DNA of 64,000 bases, taken from sequence record OQ850289; one strand, written 5' to 3'. This document shows, one piece after another, positions 3,267 to 60,273 of the stretch. The DNA is from Escherichia phage vB_EcoM_ULIM3. The first letter of the stretch is position 1; the number at the start of each line of letters is the position of its first letter. Under the pieces are notes generated by a model, which did not search any database, was not told the DNA's origin, and saw only the letters and a list, made by a program, of their open reading frames with translations. A program made the position numbers and the translations under genes.

Positions 3267-3638
3267 ATGAAAAACAGAACAAACAAAGGCCAGTTTAAAA
3301 AAGGCCAGTCTGGAAACCCATCTGGAAGACCGAAAGGCTCACGTAACAAAAGTTCACTCGTAAAAGCTCAACTGACCATTGATAATTCTGCTGAGTTTGC
3401 TGCAAAGTTGTTTGAAGCGATTGTTACAAGGGACGCTGCTAAGCTTGCAGAGTTCGGGTTAAACACAGACGACGTAACCATCAAGAGCATGATTGAGGTC
3501 GGTAAAACTATCATGACTCACTCAGCAGGTGAGATGAAAGCAATTGCAGCAGACACTAAGAAGACTACTGATAACGGCGGTCAGTCTCAGACAGATAACA
3601 AACCAACGTTCTCTGCTGTTGCAACCCTCAAAAAATAA
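3267..3638 (+). CDS. hypothetical protein with N-terminal GNPxGRPKG motif (putative DNA-binding)
   Basis: 123 aa; KGQSGNPSGRPKGSRN motif that I recall from small phage DNA-binding proteins (not verified). Confidence 0.45.
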   Translation: MKNRTNKGQFKKGQSGNPSGRPKGSRNKSSLVKAQLTIDNSAEFAAKLFEAIVTRDAAKLAEFGLNTDDVTIKSMIEVGKTIMTHSAGEMKAIAADTKKTTDNGGQSQTDNKPTFSAVATLKK

Positions 3639-3719: not shown

Positions 3720-5135
3720 ATGAGCGAATTATTTAAACATGCGCACCTTCATGCAGGTCGAACTGAAAATGGTGCTGTAAACCATACTTCATCAATGTCT
3801 GCTCTTGTAGACTTTTACAAAGCTGCTGGTTCAAGCCGTAGCAACGTAGAAATCTTACCAGACCTGTTCTGCAAAGCTTTGCGTGAGGATGTTGATGTCG
3901 CAGTTCGTATTTTGCTTCATATGCGAGATGTACGAGAAGGTATGGGTGAGCGTAAAGCCTTCAGAACTGTTTTGCTTCAAGCGATTGAAGACAAAGTTTT
4001 AGAGCCTACGCAGGTTCTTCGCATTATGGATAAGATTGCAGAACTTGGTCGTTTTGATGACTTCAAAATCTTCGTAGGTACTCGTTTCGAGACAGATGCC
4101 TTCAAACATTTAGAAGCAGCATTACTAGACCCTGCAACAGCAGGTTTGGCGGCTAAGTGGTTACCACGAGTCAAACCACGTCATAAGCAGTTTGTAAAAC
4201 GTTTCTGCAAGTTTGCCAACTTAAGTGAGAAAGAGTACCGCACACTATTGTCTGCACTATCTGATACAGTTGAGCAAAAAATCTCTGCTAATGAGTTTGG
4301 TAAGATTGACTACAGTAAGATTCCTTCACTTGCTGCTGCACGTTACCAAAAACTGTTTAACCGTAAAGATGGAGAACGCTACAAAGCTTACATCGAGTCA
4401 TTATCAAAGGGTGAGGCTAAGATTAATGCTGGTGCTGTTTACCCATACGATGTGATTAAATCTGTTAAGTATGGTAATGCAGATGTTGCTAATGAGCAGT
4501 GGAAAGCACTACCAAACTGGATGGCAGAGGGTGAGAACATTTTGTGTATGACTGATGTCTCAAGCTCAATGTCTTGGGTGAATTTCGGTTCAATCACTGC
4601 TCTTGATATTGGTGTATCTCTTGCACTGTATGTAGCAGAACGCAATACTGGTTGTTTTAAAAATGAGTTAATGGTTTATTCAACAAACCCTCACTTCATC
4701 GAACTGAGTGGTGATTTACGAAACCGTCATCGTCAGGTAATGCGTTATACTGAATATGGTTCAACTAACTTACAAGCAGCTTTTGACCGTATTCTTGAGA
4801 CAGGTAAAAGAAACAACTTGACTCAGAAAGATATGCCAAGTAAGCTTATCATCTTCTCCGATATGGAGTTCAATCAGGTTGATGGAGCTAACGGTCGTAC
4901 AAACTTTGAAGCAATTCAGAGTAAGTACAAAAAAGCTGGATATGAGATGCCACAACTGGTATTCTGGTACTTAGCAAACCGTAATGGTACTTGCGAAGTA
5001 TCTGTTAAGGATAACGGTGTAGCAATGGTATCAGGGTTCTCTCCAGCCACTTTAAAAGCTCTGCTTGGTGGTGAGAAGTTTGACCCAATCAGCGTAATGC
5101 TCAAAGCAGTAATGGTTGACCGTTATATCTGGTAA
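3720..5135 (+). CDS. vWA-domain protein with MIDAS motif; helical N-terminal domain (Ro60/TROVE-like architecture, hypothesis)
   Basis: 471 aa; perfect DxSxS MIDAS (D-V-S-S-S, nt 4549-4563) in C-terminal half; N-terminal RDVREGMGER motif; own promoter at 3651. Confidence 0.65.
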   Translation: MSELFKHAHLHAGRTENGAVNHTSSMSALVDFYKAAGSSRSNVEILPDLFCKALREDVDVAVRILLHMRDVREGMGERKAFRTVLLQAIEDKVLEPTQVLRIMDKIAELGRFDDFKIFVGTRFETDAFKHLEAALLDPATAGLAAKWLPRVKPRHKQFVKRFCKFANLSEKEYRTLLSALSDTVEQKISANEFGKIDYSKIPSLAAARYQKLFNRKDGERYKAYIESLSKGEAKINAGAVYPYDVIKSVKYGNADVANEQWKALPNWMAEGENILCMTDVSSSMSWVNFGSITALDIGVSLALYVAERNTGCFKNELMVYSTNPHFIELSGDLRNRHRQVMRYTEYGSTNLQAAFDRILETGKRNNLTQKDMPSKLIIFSDMEFNQVDGANGRTNFEAIQSKYKKAGYEMPQLVFWYLANRNGTCEVSVKDNGVAMVSGFSPATLKALLGGEKFDPISVMLKAVMVDRYIW

Positions 5136-5145
5136 AAAGTTTTAA

Positions 5146-5182
5146 AAAGGGTATTGACAATGTGTTTAATACCCTTTAATAT
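5146..5182 (+). promoter_or_regulatory. sigma70 promoter within palindrome, upstream of tRNA island
   Basis: TTGACA 5154-5159, exact 17-nt spacer, TAATAT 5177-5182; inverted repeat aagggtatt/aataccctt spans -35 and spacer. Confidence 0.7.
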
Positions 5183-5244: not shown

Positions 5245-5278
5245 TTGACAACCACTAAAAAATAATGTTAAAGTGGTT
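5245..5278 (+). promoter_or_regulatory. second promoter-like element upstream of first tRNA
   Basis: TTGACA 5245-5250 preceded by TTTTAAAAAA; inverted repeat aaccact/agtggtt; weak -10. Confidence 0.4.
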
Positions 5279-5300: not shown

Positions 5301-5377
5301 CTCTGTTTAGCTCAGCTTGGTAGAGCGTTCCGTTTGGGGCGGTAAGGCCGGAGGTTCAAGTCCTCCAACAGAGACCA
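5301..5377 (+). tRNA. tRNA-Pro (TGG)
   Basis: acceptor ctctgtt/aacagag (C1-G72, disc A, CCA encoded); anticodon loop tttgggg; T-arm ggagg-ttcaagt-cctcc; one mismatch in anticodon stem. Confidence 0.6.
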
Positions 5378-5384
5378 AATTAAT

Positions 5385-5462
5385 GTTCCAGTAGACAAAA
5401 TGGTAAAGTCACCACTCTTTCAAAGTGGATATTTGAGGGTTCAAATCCCTTCTGGAACGCCA
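5385..5462 (+). tRNA. tRNA-Glu (TTC)
   Basis: acceptor gttccag/ctggaac; anticodon stem ccact/agtgg, loop ctttcaa; T-loop ttcaaat; CCA encoded. Confidence 0.7.
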
Positions 5463-5467
5463 GTTTT

Positions 5468-5544
5468 GACAGAAGACCAATTGCAGCAAACTTAATCTTA
5501 TTCATCTGAAGGTAAATCGGACAAAGAAGAGATTTGGTCTGGTC
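5468..5544 (+). ncRNA. stem-closed element A (CAGAAGACC...GGTCTGG family)
   Basis: 7-bp helix 5474-5480/5534-5540 (AGACCAA:TTGGTCT) closing a 53-nt AT-rich interior; fills the tRNA-sized spacer between two tRNAs. Confidence 0.4.
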
Positions 5545-5553
5545 ATTAAGAAT

Positions 5554-5630
5554 TGCGGGTATAGAGAAAGGGCGTCTCACATGTCTCATTAGCATGGTAT
5601 CGGCAGGTTCGACTCCTGCACCCGCCTCCA
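5554..5630 (+). tRNA. tRNA with CAT anticodon (Met or Ile2)
   Basis: anticodon stem catgt/gcatg, loop ctcatta; T-arm gcagg-ttcgact-cctgc; acceptor 6/7 paired; CCA encoded. Confidence 0.55.
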
Positions 5631-5634
5631 AATT

Positions 5635-5704
5635 TACAGAAGACCGTTTACAGCAAAATTGAATGAAATTTTTAGCGGAAAAAATTGAAAGATACGGTCT
5701 GGTA
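5635..5704 (+). ncRNA. stem-closed element B (CAGAAGACC...GGTCTGG family)
   Basis: 7-bp helix 5641-5647/5694-5700 (AGACCGT:ACGGTCT); first 28 nt identical to element D. Confidence 0.4.
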
Positions 5705-5715
5705 ATACTAAACAT

Positions 5716-5792
5716 GGTTAGGAAGCACATAAGGTATGTGCGGTCGCCTGTTAAGCGAATGGCACAGGGTTCGAATCCCTGACTAACCGCCA
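5716..5792 (+). tRNA. tRNA-Asn (GTT)
   Basis: acceptor ggttagg/actaacc; anticodon loop ctgttaa; T-arm caggg-ttcgaat-ccctg; CCA encoded. Confidence 0.65.
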
Positions 5793-5801
5793 AATTTAAA
5801 T

Positions 5802-5889
5802 GTGTCGTTATCCCGTAGATGGTAGCGGTGGGGACTGTAAATCCCTTGTCATTGAGACTCGGTAGGTTCGACTCCTACACGGCACACCA
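5802..5889 (+). tRNA. tRNA-Tyr (GTA), long variable arm
   Basis: acceptor gtgtcgt/acggcac; anticodon stem gggga/tccct, loop ctgtaaa; ~15-nt variable arm; T-arm gtagg-ttcgact-cctac. Confidence 0.7.
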
Positions 5890-5894
5890 ATAAA

Positions 5895-5971
5895 GGCTAT
5901 GTAGTTTAACTGGAGAAAATACTCCCCTGTCACGGGAGATGATGTGAGTTCAAGTCTCATCGTAGCCGCCA
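5895..5971 (+). tRNA. tRNA-Asp (GTC)
   Basis: acceptor ggctatg/cgtagcc; anticodon stem ctccc/gggag, loop ctgtcac; CCA encoded. Confidence 0.7.
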
Positions 5972-6056
5972 AATTATAATAAGTATTTCAAAATGATGTT
6001 TTGAGAGGGCTATTTAGCCCCTCCCTTAAAGGGTTCTTACGAGTATCCTTTAAAGG

Positions 6057-6134
6057 AGCAGAAGACCAAATTCAGCAAGTTACTTAAAATTTCAAGCCAA
6101 TTTAATTTTGAAAAATTTAAAACTTGGTCTGGCT
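6057..6134 (+). ncRNA. stem-closed element C (CAGAAGACC...GGTCTGG family)
   Basis: 7-bp helix 6063-6069/6124-6130 (AGACCAA:TTGGTCT); interior AT-rich hairpin. Confidence 0.4.
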
Positions 6135-6143
6135 CAACAAATT

Positions 6144-6278
6144 TACAGAAGACCGTTTACAGCAAAACTTAAACAATCTATTTCTCGGTAAAGAAAAGGC
6201 GAAGGTTCGATTCCTTCACTCGGCAGATGTCGAGTTGGTGTAATGGCAGCACTTAAGATGATAAACAACGGTCTGGTA
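6144..6278 (+). ncRNA. stem-closed element D with internal tRNA-like module
   Basis: 8-bp helix 6150-6157/6267-6274 (AGACCGTT:AACGGTCT); interior has T-arm-like gaagg-ttcgatt-ccttc (6201-6217) and D-loop-like agttggtgtaatgg (6231-6246) but no full cloverleaf. Confidence 0.4.
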
Positions 6279-6421
6279 ATTATCTTTGTAGATAAGTTAT
6301 TAAGCTTACCTGTGAGTATGCGACCACAAAGGGTGAAAGGGTAAATTCTAGATTTAAACCCAAAAAGGCACATCGCTACAGACCTTAAGCAAGTCTGGGT
6401 AGCTTATCTACAAAGATAATT
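6278..6421 (+). repeat. 19-bp perfect inverted repeat (6278-6296 / 6403-6421) enclosing 106 nt
   Basis: aattatctttgtagataag and its exact reverse complement; lies between element D and tRNA-Lys. Confidence 0.75.
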
Positions 6422-6425
6422 TAAT

Positions 6426-6501
6426 GGAAGTGTAGCAGAATGGTGATGCGGCAGACTTTTAATCTGACAGGCGATGGGTTCGAATCCCTCCACTTCTACC
6501 A
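6426..6501 (+). tRNA. tRNA-Lys (TTT)
   Basis: acceptor ggaagtg/cacttct; anticodon loop cttttaa; T-loop ttcgaat (T-stem only 3 bp); CCA encoded. Confidence 0.6.
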
Positions 6502-6505
6502 AAAT

Positions 6506-6582
6506 GGTTCAGTCGCAGATAAGGTAATGCAAGGGTCTCATAAGCCCTATGAATGTGGGTTCGATTCCCATCTGAACCTCCA
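6506..6582 (+). tRNA. tRNA-Met (CAT)
   Basis: acceptor ggttcag/ctgaacc; anticodon stem agggt/gccct, loop ctcataa; CCA encoded. Confidence 0.7.
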
Positions 6583-6584
6583 AT

Positions 6585-58128: not shown

Positions 58129-60273
58129 ATGAACAAAGTACAGATTATTAAAAAGAATGGCTCACTTGAAGAACCTGATATCAAAAAAGTTTTAGCAGCA
58201 GTAACTAAGTCAGCTAACAGGGTTGGATATAAAGAACTCCCACCAGATGTTACCCAAGCTCTTGAGTCAGCATTCATGAGGATTCTGGTAAAGTCCACTA
58301 AGCAGAATAATTTACTCATCTCAGTCAATGATATTCACAGCATTGTTGAGGGTGCTTTGGCAGAAGTCAATCACGAGATTTATGAGTCTTACTCAACATA
58401 CAGAAATTACCGGAAAGAGGTTGCTCAAAATTGGGATGAGCTTTACCAAAAGACTAGAGACACGCTCTTCTTAGGTGACCGTGAAAACGCTAACTTTGAC
58501 AGCAGTTTAATTTCTACAAAAGGTTCAATTATTCGTGGTTACCTGACTAAAGAAATCTTTAAGCAGTACCATTTAACACCAGAGGAACTTGAAGCCATTG
58601 AAAAAGGGTTTATCTACATCCATGACTTAAGAGACCTGATTTTTGGCGGCATTAACTGTTGCTTGTTTGACATTGGTAAAGTACTGAAAGGTGGCTTTGA
58701 AATGTCTGGCATCGAATACTGTGAACCGAAGTCTGTACTGTCAGCCTTACAGGTTATTGGTGATGTAGTTCTTTCAGCAACTGCACAGCAATTTGGCGGC
58801 TTTACTTTAGCAGAGATTGATAAGGTACTTGTACCGTATGCTAAGAAGTCTCTACGCTACCATGCTGAGAAAGCAGCATCTTATGGTATTCCTAAAGAAC
58901 ATTACCATAATTATATCATGGAGCAGCTACAGATTGAATTAACTCAAGGTTTTCAGTCACTTGAAATGAAACTGAACACTGTACCTTGCAGCCGTGGTGA
59001 TTTCGCATTCACAACTTTAACATTTGGTTTACTTGACTCAGATATGTCTAATGAAGACAACCGACTACAATACATGATTGCAAGTACTCTCCTAGATGTT
59101 CGTATGAATGGACAAGGTAAGAGCAAAAAACCTGTTGTATTCCCTAAACTTGTTTATATCTACGACCAGAAGAGACATGATGAAAATATCTGTCAAGGTC
59201 ACCTGTACAGTAAAGCTATTGAGTGTTGCTCTAAAGCAATGTATCCAGATTTCTTAAGTGTATCTGGTCATGGTGCTGTAGCAGAGGCTTTTGAGCGTTC
59301 TGGTAAGGTGATTTCACCGATGGGTTGCAGAGCCTTCTTATCTCCATATCTTAATGAGGATGGGGAAGAGTTCTATGTTGGTCGTGCTAACATTGGTGCT
59401 GTATCTTTGAACTTGCCAATGATTTACCAGTATTCTAAAGAGAATGGTTTAGATTTCTGGAAAGAGCTTGATAAGTACCTAGAGATGATTCGCAGCTTCC
59501 ACAAGAAACGCTACGAAATGATTGCTAATATGCCAGCAAGTTCTAACCCTCTTGCATTCACACAAGGTGGTTTGTACAAAGGTATTAAGAAACCTACTGA
59601 TAAGGTTGGTTGGGATATTGTGAAGTCCTTCACAGCTTCTTTTGGGGTTACCGCACTGGATGAGTTATCTGTTCTTGCTGAAGGTAAACGGCTGCATGAA
59701 GCTGGGAGCTATAGTTTTGCATACGATGTTCTGGCATACATTAACATGAAAACTGAAGAGTTTAAAAATGAAGATGGCTTCTTATATGCTGTCTATGGTA
59801 CTCCAGCAGAATCACTTTGTGGAACTCAGCTAAAACAGTTCAGAGAAATGTTTGGTGTTATTAAAGGCGTTTCTGACAAGGAATACTTTACAAACAGTTT
59901 CCATATGAATGTTACGGCAGACATCTCACCATTTGAGAAGCAGGACTTAGAAGAGCCATTCTTCCATATCTGTAGAGGTGGCAGAATCCAGTATGTAAGG
60001 GTAGCTAACCCAGAAAACTTAACAGCACTTAAAAGTTGTATTACCAGAGGGATGTTGAAGGGTTTTTATCAGGGACTTAACTTTGACTTAGCAATCTGTG
60101 AGCATTGTGGTAACAGACCAAAGGCTGATGTTGAAGAATGTGAGGTTTGCCATTCACATGATATCTCTGTGATTAACAGGGTGTGTGGGTATCTTGGGTG
60201 GACTAAGATTAAAGGCGAATCCCGAATGAACGATGCAAAAATTGCTGAGATTCGTGACAGAATCTCTATGTAA
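58129..60273 (+). CDS. nrdD: anaerobic ribonucleoside-triphosphate reductase (class III)
   Basis: 714 aa; C-terminal Zn-ribbon CEHCG...CEVC and glycyl-radical motif RVCGYLG. Confidence 0.85.
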   Translation: MNKVQIIKKNGSLEEPDIKKVLAAVTKSANRVGYKELPPDVTQALESAFMRILVKSTKQNNLLISVNDIHSIVEGALAEVNHEIYESYSTYRNYRKEVAQNWDELYQKTRDTLFLGDRENANFDSSLISTKGSIIRGYLTKEIFKQYHLTPEELEAIEKGFIYIHDLRDLIFGGINCCLFDIGKVLKGGFEMSGIEYCEPKSVLSALQVIGDVVLSATAQQFGGFTLAEIDKVLVPYAKKSLRYHAEKAASYGIPKEHYHNYIMEQLQIELTQGFQSLEMKLNTVPCSRGDFAFTTLTFGLLDSDMSNEDNRLQYMIASTLLDVRMNGQGKSKKPVVFPKLVYIYDQKRHDENICQGHLYSKAIECCSKAMYPDFLSVSGHGAVAEAFERSGKVISPMGCRAFLSPYLNEDGEEFYVGRANIGAVSLNLPMIYQYSKENGLDFWKELDKYLEMIRSFHKKRYEMIANMPASSNPLAFTQGGLYKGIKKPTDKVGWDIVKSFTASFGVTALDELSVLAEGKRLHEAGSYSFAYDVLAYINMKTEEFKNEDGFLYAVYGTPAESLCGTQLKQFREMFGVIKGVSDKEYFTNSFHMNVTADISPFEKQDLEEPFFHICRGGRIQYVRVANPENLTALKSCITRGMLKGFYQGLNFDLAICEHCGNRPKADVEECEVCHSHDISVINRVCGYLGWTKIKGESRMNDAKIAEIRDRISM

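What the first reader, a model, noticed from the sequence alone, without database searches (positions are those of the whole stretch)
3720..5135. vWA/MIDAS protein with helical N-domain directly upstream of the tRNA island: Ro60-like architecture
Seen: 471-aa ORF with a perfect MIDAS motif DVSSS (DxSxS) at nt 4549-4563, the hallmark of von Willebrand A domains, in the C-terminal half; the N-terminal ~270 aa has no motif I can assign and includes RDVREGMGER. Established: Ro60/Rsr proteins combine an N-terminal helical TROVE ring with a C-terminal vWA/MIDAS domain and bind structured Y RNAs; bacterial and phage Y-RNA-like genes are tRNA-like and lie near rsr and tRNA genes. Inference: this protein plus the adjacent stem-closed and tRNA-mimic elements may form an undescribed phage ribonucleoprotein module. 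My recollection that the N-domain resembles a DUF2828-type domain is unverified.
Basis: partly seen in the sequence, partly recalled or inferred. Interest (0 to 1): 0.65.

Follow-up and report, generated by a model that had tools for sequence, protein, structure and literature searches.

The report
Phage Ro60-like protein with Y-RNAs
This Felix O1-type phage gene encodes a distant, ring-shaped relative of the RNA-chaperone Ro60 (already reported for a 97%-identical orthologue that disarms a bacterial defence), and next to it lie previously undescribed small RNAs, one a rearranged tRNA look-alike, that accompany this gene family across many unrelated phages and are probably its RNA partners.

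Summary
ORF 3720-5135 (+) encodes a 471-aa protein with Pfam DUF2828 and DUF7788 (vWA) domains and a complete, invariant MIDAS motif, 166 nt upstream of a 26-tRNA island in a Felixounavirus.

It is not new as stated. The 97%-identical Bas63 gp130 was reported (PhageMaP preprint, 2024) as Ro60-like, tRNA-adjacent, possibly Y-RNA-binding, and an experimentally shown counter to Ppl defence.

What I found no description of is the likely RNA partner. Four same-strand elements (5474-5540, 5641-5700, 6063-6130, 6150-6274) share a closing stem followed by UUACAGCAA. The longest encloses a circularly permuted tRNA-like domain (T-arm, closed acceptor hairpin, D-arm), as in bacterial YrlA.

The same module flanks homologues in unrelated phages: 87 hits on the gene strand against 3 on the opposite strand, 64 of them within 500 nt, with strong stem covariation. 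An independent genome set replicates this (51 against 7).

Binding itself is inferred, not shown.

The parts
3720..5135 (+). Gene for the 471-aa Ro60-like protein, orthologue of Bas63 gp130. The N-terminal helical domain (about aa 1-270, DUF2828) is followed by a C-terminal vWA domain (aa 275-455, DUF7788).
4554..4568 (+). MIDAS DxSxS (D279-V-S281-S-S283). The remaining MIDAS residues are T349 (nt 4764-4766) and D381 (nt 4860-4862).
   Evidence: Translation. All five residues are invariant in alignment A1. They align with DVSGSM, GGTD and TDNE of phage Ro60 in hhalign.
5146..5177 (+). 12-bp hairpin immediately after the stop codon. It overlaps a promoter-like site (5154-5182), and a second promoter-like site (5245-5274) lies before tRNA-Pro.
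   Evidence: Consensus scans only. Function not tested.
5474..5540 (+). Short Y-RNA-like element 1. P1 is AGACCAA/UUGGUCU followed by UUG-CAGCAA, with an A/U-rich interior. An outer 4-bp helix (UGAC/GUCA) lies across an AGA/G bulge, extending the element to about 5467-5547.
   Evidence: Motif search, fold, strict pattern scan. Conserved at the same position in Bas63, ST11 and Moogle.
5641..5700 (+). Short Y-RNA-like element 2. P1 is AGACCGU/ACGGUCU followed by UUA-CAGCAA, with outer helix UUAC/GUAA.
   Evidence: Also found as a full-model hit by covariance model R1 (22 bits).
6063..6130 (+). Short Y-RNA-like element 3. P1 is AGACCAA/UUGGUCU followed by AUU-CAGCAA, with outer helix GAGC/GCUC.
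6150..6274 (+). Long Y-RNA-like element of YrlA type. P1 (AGACCGUU/AACGGUCU) is followed by UA-CAGCAA, then P2 (CUUAA/UUAAG), a long variable hairpin and a T-arm (GAAGG-UUCGAUU-CCUUC, 6201-6217). Next come a closed 7-bp acceptor-like hairpin (ACUCGGC-AGAU-GUCGAGU) and a D-arm (GUGU-AAUGGCA-GCAC). The outer helix UUAC/GUAA extends it to about 6143-6281.
   Evidence: Covariation over 11 homologous elements. R1 hit at 40.1 bits, E 5e-5. No Rfam family matches beyond a local T-arm hit.
5301..10245 (+). tRNA island of 26 tRNA genes in which the four elements are embedded. Elements 1-4 lie among the first nine tRNAs, upstream of a strong promoter-like site at 6675-6703.
   Evidence: ARAGORN, Rfam, promoter scan.
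3267..3638 (+). Co-oriented upstream gene (DUF5681, PHROG 4114). It is context only and does not travel with the Ro60-like gene outside the subfamily.
   Evidence: tblastn finds it in 1 of 155 distant loci.

Best explanation
The ORF encodes a highly diverged, compact (471 aa) Ro60-type protein: a helical N-terminal ring domain closed by a C-terminal vWA/MIDAS domain. It belongs to a very large, mostly phage-borne family (Pfam DUF2828 + DUF7788, PHROG 850). I propose that it forms ribonucleoprotein particles with small RNAs encoded beside it on the same strand.

These RNAs share a module that parallels the Ro60-binding site of Y RNAs: a 7-10-bp helix formed by the RNA's 5' and 3' ends, with a conserved single-stranded (U)UACAGCAA immediately 3' of the 5' strand. 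In this phage there are three short versions and one long version. In the long version the loop holds a circularly permuted tRNA-like domain (T-arm, closed acceptor stem, D-arm), the layout of bacterial YrlA. They are embedded in the first tRNA transcription unit and are presumably released by tRNA-processing enzymes.

By analogy with Rsr/Y RNA and with Thermus phage phiLo Ro60/Yrl, the particle would bind structured or damaged RNA ends, or tether or inhibit a host RNA-handling enzyme such as PNPase, during infection. One demonstrated output of the protein is protection from the host Ppl defence (ATPase + PHP phosphoesterase).

Shown: fold similarity; orthology to the anti-Ppl protein gp130; existence, covariation and gene linkage of the RNA module. 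Inferred: that the protein binds these RNAs, what the particle does, and how Ppl is blocked.

For: Remote sequence homology. hhalign against three phage Ro60 proteins gives 85% probability, E 6e-6, over 213 columns with matching MIDAS motifs.

Orthologue function. Bas63 gp130 is 97% identical and syntenic. Its deletion sensitises the phage to Ppl, complementation rescues it, and the gene transfers protection to T7 (PMC11482910).

RNA module.
- Four copies lie in the window, against 0.32 expected by chance.
- In 11 long elements from 9 distant phage loci plus the window, 97.8% of cells are paired against 38-44% in slid controls. 26 of 31 pairs change on both sides, and there are 140 compensatory cells against <=29.
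- tRNA core nucleotides are kept: U8 and G10 are invariant, A14 is present in 10 of 11, and GG and a terminal A are in every D-loop.
- 49 of 50 hits of model R1 are on the gene's strand. Many lie 20-35 nt after the stop codon in loci that have no tRNAs.
- A fixed pattern scan gives 87 hits on the gene strand, 3 on the opposite strand and 2-4 in shuffles. 64 of the 87 lie within 500 nt of the gene, and 43 of 75 loci have one that close.
- The scan replicates in 80 genome/MAG loci: 51 against 7, with 31 within 500 nt.
- No protein-coding neighbour co-travels with the gene.

Link to YrlA. Model R1 finds full-length permuted tRNA-like RNAs (54 and 38 bits) upstream of a canonical TROVE Ro60 gene in Streptomyces phage Jada, and the T-AS-D core upstream of a mycobacteriophage Ro60 gene. 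The layout matches Chen et al. 2014 (PMC4201824). A precedent for a phage Ro60 binding adjacent phage-encoded Y-like RNAs is PMC12135203.
Against: - No binding, expression or processing data exist for these RNAs. The link is purely comparative.
- gp130 alone, on a plasmid or inserted in T7 (which has none of these RNAs), restores plaquing on Ppl. The phage RNAs are therefore not required for that activity.
- The N-domain does not match Pfam TROVE, and hhalign of the N-domain alone gives 0.4% probability.
- The canonical GNCGAA/CGAA Y-RNA motif is absent.
- The strict motif is missing from 22 of 75 viral loci and from most of the 33-36%-identity Clostridia group.
- The seed alignment was built by searching for pairing, which inflates the paired percentages, though not the strand and position statistics.
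- Ring closure and the central hole were inferred from superposition scores. I did not inspect coordinates.
Confidence: 0.7

Rival explanations
1. The protein is a stand-alone protein inhibitor of the Ppl defence, or of another host enzyme. On this view its Ro60-like fold is an evolutionary leftover, and the neighbouring RNA elements serve something else and are not bound by it.
For: gp130 expressed alone from a plasmid or from the T7 genome counters Ppl, and even raises plating above the no-defence control. A complete, invariant MIDAS site is typically a protein- or ligand-binding site. No RNA-binding experiment exists for the family.
Against: The RNA module follows the gene across very different phages, and no protein neighbour does. 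It often starts 20-35 nt after the stop codon. It has the same design as known Ro60 ligands, namely an end-to-end stem, an adjacent single-stranded motif and an optional tRNA-like domain. The two functions are not mutually exclusive, and the protein could use host RNAs when expressed in T7.
Confidence: 0.2
2. The elements are cis-acting processing or stability signals of the tRNA and gene transcripts, for example RNase entry or stop sites or 3'-UTR stabilisers. On this view they are not trans-acting partner RNAs.
For: In the window they lie between tRNAs within one apparent transcription unit. In other phages they lie directly 3' of the gene and, in one lineage, are followed by an intrinsic terminator.
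Against: They occur beside the gene in loci with no tRNAs at all. This explanation does not account for a conserved single-stranded CAGCAA, or for a full tRNA-like core with conserved tertiary-contact nucleotides. The elements are not terminator-like: the loops are 40-110 nt and there is no U-tract.
Confidence: 0.07
3. The repeated stem-closed elements are remnants of a small mobile element (inverted-repeat, MITE-like) or chance repeats within the tRNA island, unrelated to the gene.
For: There are four similar copies within 800 nt, with imperfect terminal inverted repeats.
Against: Strand bias is strict: 87 against 3 and 51 against 7. The elements cluster next to the gene in unrelated genomes, and their stems covary while the single-stranded motif stays constant. 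A DNA-level inverted repeat would score on both strands.
Confidence: 0.03

Closest known systems
Bas63 (Escherichia phage JohannRWettstein) gp130, the anti-Ppl counter-defence protein (PhageMaP preprint, PMC11482910)
   Different: Nothing at the protein level. The preprint guessed that some annotated tRNAs might be Y RNAs and did not identify the CAGCAA-module elements. In Bas63 the long element lies under a small opposite-strand 'hypothetical protein' annotation (bas63_0137).
Ro60 / Rsr (TROVE + vWA) with Y RNAs, including bacterial YrlA/YrlB (Chen et al. 2014, PMC4201824)
   Same: The protein has the same two-domain architecture and MIDAS motif. The partner RNAs are encoded within a few kb on the same strand. 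Each RNA has a stem formed by its two ends next to a conserved motif. One long form has a T-arm, closed acceptor stem and D-arm, and there are also shorter hairpin forms.
   Different: The protein is about 70-80 residues shorter (471 aa against 538-552 aa). There is no Pfam TROVE match and no sequence similarity in the N-domain. The motif is (U)UACAGCAA rather than GNCGAA(N)G or GGUCCGA. The usual context is a phage tRNA island, or the gene alone, rather than an rsr-rtcBA operon.
Thermus phage phiLo Ro60 with Yrl1/Yrl2 (PMC12135203; PDB 9KOP, 9L5Y)
   Different: phiLo Ro60 is a recognised TROVE protein. Its RNAs carry CGAA in an internal bulge and lie upstream of the gene. It was shown to bind them and to attenuate host PNPase. 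None of that has been tested for this protein.
Pfam DUF2828 (PF11443) + DUF7788 (PF25043); PHROG 850 'RNA-binding protein'
   Same: This protein is a direct member: both Pfam domains score far above their gathering thresholds, and it covers the whole PHROG profile.
   Different: These entries carry no mechanism and no RNA partner. The family has about 8,800 clusters at 50% identity with E <=1e-3, and 4,059 with E <=1e-30.
Permuted (two-piece) tmRNA genes and permuted tRNA genes
   Same: In the DNA, the 3' half (T-arm plus acceptor 3' strand) precedes the 5' half (acceptor 5' strand plus D-arm). In three distant elements the acceptor loop contains N-CCA.
   Different: There is no tag reading frame or pseudoknots. 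ARAGORN does not call the elements, and the Rfam permuted-tmRNA model does not cover them. The window's element has a 4-nt acceptor loop without CCA. The short forms lack any tRNA-like part.

Membership tests
Ro60 / TROVE-vWA proteins | Helical (HEAT-like) repeat ring plus a C-terminal vWA domain in one toroidal fold | tested here: met
Ro60 / TROVE-vWA proteins | Sequence match to the Pfam TROVE domain (PF05731) | tested here: not met
   No TROVE hit in the query or in any of 36 homologues, even at E <=10. hhalign of the N-domain against the phage Ro60 N-domain gives 0.4% probability.
Ro60 / TROVE-vWA proteins | vWA domain with a MIDAS motif (DxSxS...T...D), related to the Ro60 vWA domain | tested here: met
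   D279, S281, S283, T349 and D381 are invariant. hhalign to phage Ro60 gives 85% probability, E 6e-6, over the vWA domain plus the preceding helices. Pfam vWA_Ro60 matches weakly in 4 of 36 members and VWA_2 in 22 of 36.
Ro60 / TROVE-vWA proteins | Cognate Y RNA encoded nearby on the same strand | tested here: met
   Four elements lie 340-1140 nt downstream on the + strand. The same module is linked to homologues in two independent locus sets. The motif differs from canonical Y RNAs.
Ro60 / TROVE-vWA proteins | Binds Y RNA on the outer ring surface and misfolded RNA ends in the central hole | not testable with these tools
   Needs EMSA, CLIP or a structure of the complex.
Pfam DUF2828 + DUF7788 / PHROG 850 | Scores above the curated thresholds for both domains, in the N-to-C order DUF2828 then DUF7788 | tested here: met
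   DUF2828 scores 102.2 bits (cut-off 29). DUF7788 scores 149.5 bits (cut-off 27.1). PHROG 850 gives E 8e-183 over positions 1-476 of 476.
YrlA-type bacterial/phage Y RNA (applied to element 6150-6274) | Encoded within about 4 kb of the Ro60 gene on the same strand | tested here: met
   It starts 1,015 nt after the stop codon on the + strand. Criterion from PMC4201824.
YrlA-type bacterial/phage Y RNA (applied to element 6150-6274) | tRNA-like domain in the order (V) - T-arm - closed acceptor-like stem - D-arm, with tRNA tertiary-contact nucleotides | tested here: met
   Segmentation. The T, AS and D helices are 100% paired with compensatory changes across 11 elements. U8, G10, A14, the D-loop GG and its terminal A are conserved. 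Model R1 cross-detects such RNAs beside canonical TROVE Ro60 genes.
YrlA-type bacterial/phage Y RNA (applied to element 6150-6274) | Stem formed by the 5' and 3' ends | tested here: met
   P1 is 100% paired, 9 of its 10 pairs change on both sides, and there are up to 5 pair types per position. Within the window, an outer 4-bp helix also covaries among the four copies (UUAC/GUAA, UGAC/GUCA, GAGC/GCUC).
YrlA-type bacterial/phage Y RNA (applied to element 6150-6274) | GNCGAA(N0-1)G motif near the 5' end | tested here: not met
   The conserved motif is (U)UACAGCAA. Canonical Ro60 loci lack the CAGCAA module, and R1 alignments to them delete that segment.
YrlA-type bacterial/phage Y RNA (applied to element 6150-6274) | Bound by the Ro60 protein; carries pseudouridine-55 and dihydrouridine | not testable with these tools
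   Requires immunoprecipitation and modification mapping.
Anti-Ppl counter-defence protein (Bas63 gp130) | Orthology to the experimentally tested protein | tested here: met
   457 of 471 residues identical, no gaps, same gene order. The function itself comes from PMC11482910 and was not tested for this phage.

The most novel reading that the evidence does not exclude
The DUF2828/DUF7788 family (thousands of clusters, mostly in large phages, including Felix O1, KVP40-like vibriophages and many uncultured lineages) is a hidden major branch of Ro60. It has its own class of Y RNAs, defined by an end-to-end stem plus a UUACAGCAA motif, with or without a permuted tRNA-like domain. These gene-plus-RNA cassettes would be a widespread phage counter-defence or RNA-surveillance module. 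The genetically tractable Bas63/Felix O1 system, with its known Ppl phenotype, would then offer a direct way to find out what Ro60-Y RNA particles do.
Probability: 0.6. Interest if true: 0.75.

Novelty: new variant of a known kind. Interest (0 to 1): 0.62.

Why it matters
Ro60 and Y RNAs are conserved from bacteria to humans and are clinically important as autoantigens, yet their core function remains debated. In bacteria they are known from only about 5% of genomes and a few phages.

If this reading is right, a much larger and sequence-invisible branch of Ro60 exists in phages, each member carrying its own recognisable partner RNA. At least one member has a clean genetic phenotype, protection from the Ppl defence, in a phage with knockout tools.

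That makes several questions directly testable. What does the RNA contribute? Why is a tRNA-like domain attached? Why does the module sit in tRNA islands? How does an RNA-chaperone fold defeat an ATPase-phosphoesterase defence?

It also corrects annotation. The elements lie in apparently non-coding gaps, or under spurious small ORFs, in hundreds of Felixounavirus records.

Tried and rejected
- Sequence search of the protein and of profile A1 against PDB gave only non-significant hits. Ro60 appeared at E 0.4 through the MIDAS segment.
- NCBIfam gave nothing, so the source of RefSeq's 'RNA-binding protein' name was not traced.
- A literature search for DUF2828 returned only incidental plant papers.
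- Rfam, at both gathering and permissive thresholds, has no Y-RNA or other family for the elements. The sub-threshold tmRNA-like hits lie elsewhere in the island.
- The Chen et al. YrlA seed alignment is not held, so I could not score the element with the original YrlA model. I used canonical Ro60 phage loci as a substitute control.
- MAFFT alone could not align the elements, so I registered them by segment instead.
- My first pattern scan was too loose (642 against 407 against 364) and was replaced with a stricter one before I looked at the replication set.
- Co-travelling protein neighbours: DUF5681, DUF7338 and DUF7217 do not follow the gene. RNA-repair genes recur in only a few loci by single-query tblastn: Rnl1 in 3, a metallophosphoesterase in 4, Band_7 in 8, PNK in 0, out of 155. 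A general RNA-repair operon context was therefore rejected.
- The fifth pattern hit in the window (58764-58931) lies inside a 714-aa ORF and was dismissed as chance.
- 'tRNA-OTHER' in phage ST11 turned out to be the tRNA-Tyr position, not the long element.
Full report
**1. What is there**

The window is a Felix O1-like myovirus (Felixounavirus). The 2.2 kb around the finding is 97% identical to wV8, Felix O1 and about 250 other records. RDVREGMGER is at aa 69-78. Twenty-six tRNA genes follow on the same strand from 5301 to 10245.

The protein matches Pfam DUF2828 (N-terminal part) and DUF7788 (aa 275-455), both far above threshold. It covers PHROG 850, labelled 'RNA-binding protein', end to end at E 8e-183. 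RefSeq already names the gene 'RNA-binding protein', and several depositors call it 'vWFA protein'.

**2. Prior knowledge**

The PhageMaP preprint (PMC11482910) studied Bas63, a Felixounavirus (MZ501086). Its gene 130 is the orthologue: 457 of 471 residues are identical, there are no gaps, and the order is the same (DUF5681 gene, this gene, tRNA-Pro).

The authors report the following:
- It lies directly upstream of the tRNA genes.
- Deleting g130 makes Bas63 sensitive to the Ppl defence (ATPase + PHP domain), and complementation rescues it.
- gp130 expressed from a plasmid or from the T7 genome restores T7 plaquing on Ppl.

A phage Ro60 that binds adjacent phage-encoded Y-like RNAs has also been solved, for Thermus phage phiLo (PMC12135203).

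**3. Is it really Ro60-like?**

I built an alignment of 36 homologues at 40-88% identity (A1) and obtained a confident AlphaFold model (pLDDT 86.8, pTM 0.86).

- Foldseek against the PDB: the top 12 hits are all Ro60/TROVE structures, aligned over about 520-560 columns at E 4.5e-9 to 5e-7 and TM 0.49-0.66. They include Xenopus and human Ro60, Deinococcus Rsr and phage phiLo Ro60. The next hits cover the vWA domain only, at E >=1.5e-3 and TM about 0.22.

At the sequence level the relationship is remote. Pfam TROVE never matches the query or any of the 36 homologues, even at E 10. The Ro60-specific vWA model matches 4 of 36 weakly. Profile-profile comparison with three actinophage Ro60 proteins gives 85% probability (E 6e-6) over the vWA domain and the helices before it, with matching DVSGSM, G(S/G)T(N/D) and (S/T)D(M/N)E motifs. 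The N-domain alone gives no signal.

The full MIDAS set (D279, S281, S283, T349, D381) is invariant.

My conclusion is that the protein shares the fold and very probably the ancestry of Ro60, but it is not a TROVE member by the family's own sequence model. The family is large: 8,842 clusters at 50% identity with E <=1e-3, and 4,059 with E <=1e-30.

**4. Linkage to tRNAs**

Among 60 distant viral loci (39-47% identity), 25 carry tRNA or tmRNA genes within 6 kb, every one on the gene's strand, in several different tRNA arrangements. Canonical actinophage Ro60 genes also sit among tRNAs.

**5. The RNA elements in the window**

The gaps of the tRNA island contain four copies of CAGAAGACCNNUUNCAGCAA, against 0.32 expected by chance. 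Each copy is paired with a downstream GGUCUGG, so that the two ends form a helix.

Within the window the four copies also share an outer 4-bp helix across an AGA/G bulge. That helix covaries between copies: UUAC/GUAA, UGAC/GUCA and GAGC/GCUC.

Three copies are short, with P1-to-P1 spans of 60-68 nt and A/U-rich interiors. The fourth (6150-6274) encloses, in this order:
- a 5-bp P2 helix
- a long variable hairpin
- a perfect T-arm
- a 7-bp hairpin in the acceptor position, closed by a 4-nt loop
- a D-arm

This is a tRNA circularly permuted at the anticodon loop, with the anticodon loop replaced by the P1 extension. It is the layout that Chen et al. 2014 defined for YrlA: T, then AS, then D, with a 5'/3' stem, encoded within 4 kb of Ro60 on the same strand.

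Rfam 15 has no family for any of these elements.

**6. The same RNA beside homologues elsewhere**

Scanning the distant loci for T-arms that are not part of ordinary tRNAs found permuted elements in many unrelated phages. Each has a 7/7-bp closed acceptor hairpin followed by a canonical D-arm. Some are directly next to the gene.

Their flanks all form a closing stem. The stem sequence differs in every phage, but it is always followed by UUYCAGCAA.

I registered 11 such elements segment by segment and counted pairs:
- 97.8% of cells are paired, against 38-44% when the partners are slid.
- 26 of 31 pairs change on both sides.
- There are 140 compensatory cells, against <=29 in slid controls.
- P1, T, AS and D are each 100% paired.
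- U8 and G10 are invariant, A14 is present in 10 of 11, and every D-loop has GG and ends in A.

The paired percentages are inflated because I chose the segments by their pairing, so I relied on independent tests.

(a) A covariance model (R1) returned 50 hits at E <=1 in 971 kb, 49 of them on the gene's strand. They include new full-length elements flanking the gene, and a class of short elements (P1 plus UACAGCAA, no tRNA domain) that start 20-35 nt after the stop codon in loci with no tRNAs at all.

(b) A fixed, explicit pattern gave 87 hits on the gene strand, 3 on the opposite strand and 2-4 in shuffles. The pattern was: P1 of at least 7 bp, a short A/U spacer, C[AC]GCA, 20-170 nt, then the complementary strand ending C[U/A] and followed by G. 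Of the 87 hits, 64 lie within 500 nt of the gene, a zone that is about 8% of each locus. 43 of 75 loci have a hit that close. In the 64-kb window the pattern finds the four island elements plus one hit inside a long ORF, which I dismissed as chance.

(c) Replication on 80 loci from a different collection (bacterial and archaeal genomes and MAGs, 33-42% identity) gave 51 against 7 against 0-6, with 31 hits within 500 nt. The signal is concentrated in the 36-42% identity group and largely absent from a Clostridia group.

(d) No protein-coding neighbour travels with the gene.

(e) All four elements are syntenic in Bas63, ST11 and Moogle (about 80% identity). A 47%-identity relative (L007) has two short elements and one long one with different P1 sequences.

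**7. Relation to genuine Y RNAs**

Model R1 was built only from DUF2828-linked elements. It nonetheless finds full-length permuted tRNA-like RNAs at 54 and 38 bits upstream of the canonical TROVE Ro60 gene of Streptomyces phage Jada. It also finds the T-AS-D core just upstream of a mycobacteriophage Ro60 gene. In these alignments the CAGCAA segment is deleted, and the strict CAGCAA pattern is absent from all three canonical loci.

The tRNA-like module is therefore shared with YrlA, whereas the stem-adjacent motif is specific to this protein branch. That is what one would expect if the motif is the protein's recognition site and has co-diverged with it. [quoted passage not shown]

**8. Mechanism**

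Most likely (about 0.7): the protein is a compact Ro60 that assembles with these RNAs through the P1/CAGCAA module. In the long form, the tRNA-like domain either stabilises the RNA or recruits tRNA-binding host factors. The particle would then act on host or phage RNA metabolism during infection.

The only demonstrated activity is protection from Ppl, by the orthologue. That activity does not need the phage RNAs, because it works in T7. Either the protein moiety alone blocks Ppl, or host RNAs substitute for the phage ones.

The steps from 'linked' to 'bound', and from 'bound' to 'function', are inference.

An RNA-repair context is present only in some lineages: T4-type RNA ligase 1, a metallophosphoesterase and Band_7 lie beside the gene there. 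It is not general.

**9. Rivals**

- The protein acts purely as a protein inhibitor, and the RNAs are unrelated to it (0.2).
- The elements are cis-acting processing or stability signals (0.07).
- The elements are mobile-element remnants or chance repeats (0.03).

The strand bias, the position bias, the covariation with a constant single-stranded motif, and the presence of the elements in tRNA-free loci argue against the last two.

**10. Verdict**

The Ro60-like interpretation is supported, but it was already published for the orthologue and is implicit in database names.

The part I found no prior description of, within the literature and Rfam copies I could search, is a conserved Y-RNA-like family. 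It has short forms and permuted-tRNA forms, and it accompanies this protein family across phages.

I rate the finding a new variant of a known kind, of moderately high interest.

Noticed in passing
window 7976-8072 (+): The 97-nt gap between tRNA-Thr and tRNA-Val folds unusually well (-29.9 kcal/mol, z = -3.7, 0 of 200 shuffles as stable). It is not a tRNA and lacks the CAGCAA module.
   Followed up: no
window about 7130-7212 (+): A tRNA-like sequence with a T-arm motif (GGTTCAACTCC at 7185-7195) and complementary ends (GGGACG...CGTCCC), ending in CCA. ARAGORN did not call it and Rfam tRNA did not hit it. It may be a degenerate or atypical tRNA.
   Followed up: no
window 6602-6906 (+): Sub-threshold Rfam matches to permuted tmRNA (32.5 bits, 6602-6785) and tmRNA (16.1 bits, 6717-6906) fall in the 247-nt gap after tRNA-Ile. 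That gap also holds the best promoter-like site of the region (6675-6703, 11 of 12 matches).
   Followed up: no
L032, L034, L036, L052 (about 4.4-5.3 kb downstream of the gene); L027:1317-1767: ARAGORN calls tmRNA genes on the gene's strand a few kb from the Ro60-like gene in several distant phage loci, including one permuted tmRNA. This is another tRNA-mimic RNA in the same neighbourhood.
   Followed up: no
L055:7524-7639, L081:7791-7922, L081:10481-10611: In three distant long elements the loop closing the acceptor-like stem reads N-CCA followed by 2-5 nt (GCCAAUU, ACCAACUAU, CCCAAU). RNase P cleavage there would leave a two-piece RNA with a CCA 3' end, as reported for M. smegmatis YrlA. The window's element has only AGAU.
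   Followed up: partly
L168:7432-7842 (also the L010 group): After the short element, the conserved 3' tail GGAUCGG-UA-CAGCAA opens a second, roughly 270-nt element. It is closed by CGAUCC, has no T-arm inside, and is followed by a clear intrinsic terminator (GCCACUUCGGUGGC plus a U-tract). This suggests a transcription unit of gene, RNA, RNA and terminator, and a third type of insert.
   Followed up: partly
window 6143-6373 (-); Bas63 bas63_0137/0138 (L001:32748-33022): Small opposite-strand ORFs (76 aa here; 50 and 36 aa annotated in Bas63) overlap the Y-RNA-like elements. They are probably spurious gene calls over a structured RNA.
   Followed up: partly
L085 (Citrobacter phage Moogle, KM236239): The record annotates the island's tRNAs on the strand opposite to the Ro60-like gene. 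The homologous tRNAs in the window and in Bas63 are on the gene's strand, so this is probably a strand error in the record.
   Followed up: no
L168/L169:794-8555: In one widespread uncultured lineage (protein P0090, on at least 14 contigs) the gene lies between a T4-type RNA ligase 1 and a metallophosphoesterase, with a Band_7 protein nearby. This RNA-repair-like neighbourhood recurs in only a few of the 155 loci.
   Followed up: partly
window 8328-8885 and 9274-10071 (+): Two protein genes (DUF7338; DUF7217, which also resembles the C-terminal part of a PHROG annotated 'GTP-binding domain') are embedded inside the tRNA island. They do not accompany the Ro60-like gene in other phages.
   Followed up: partly
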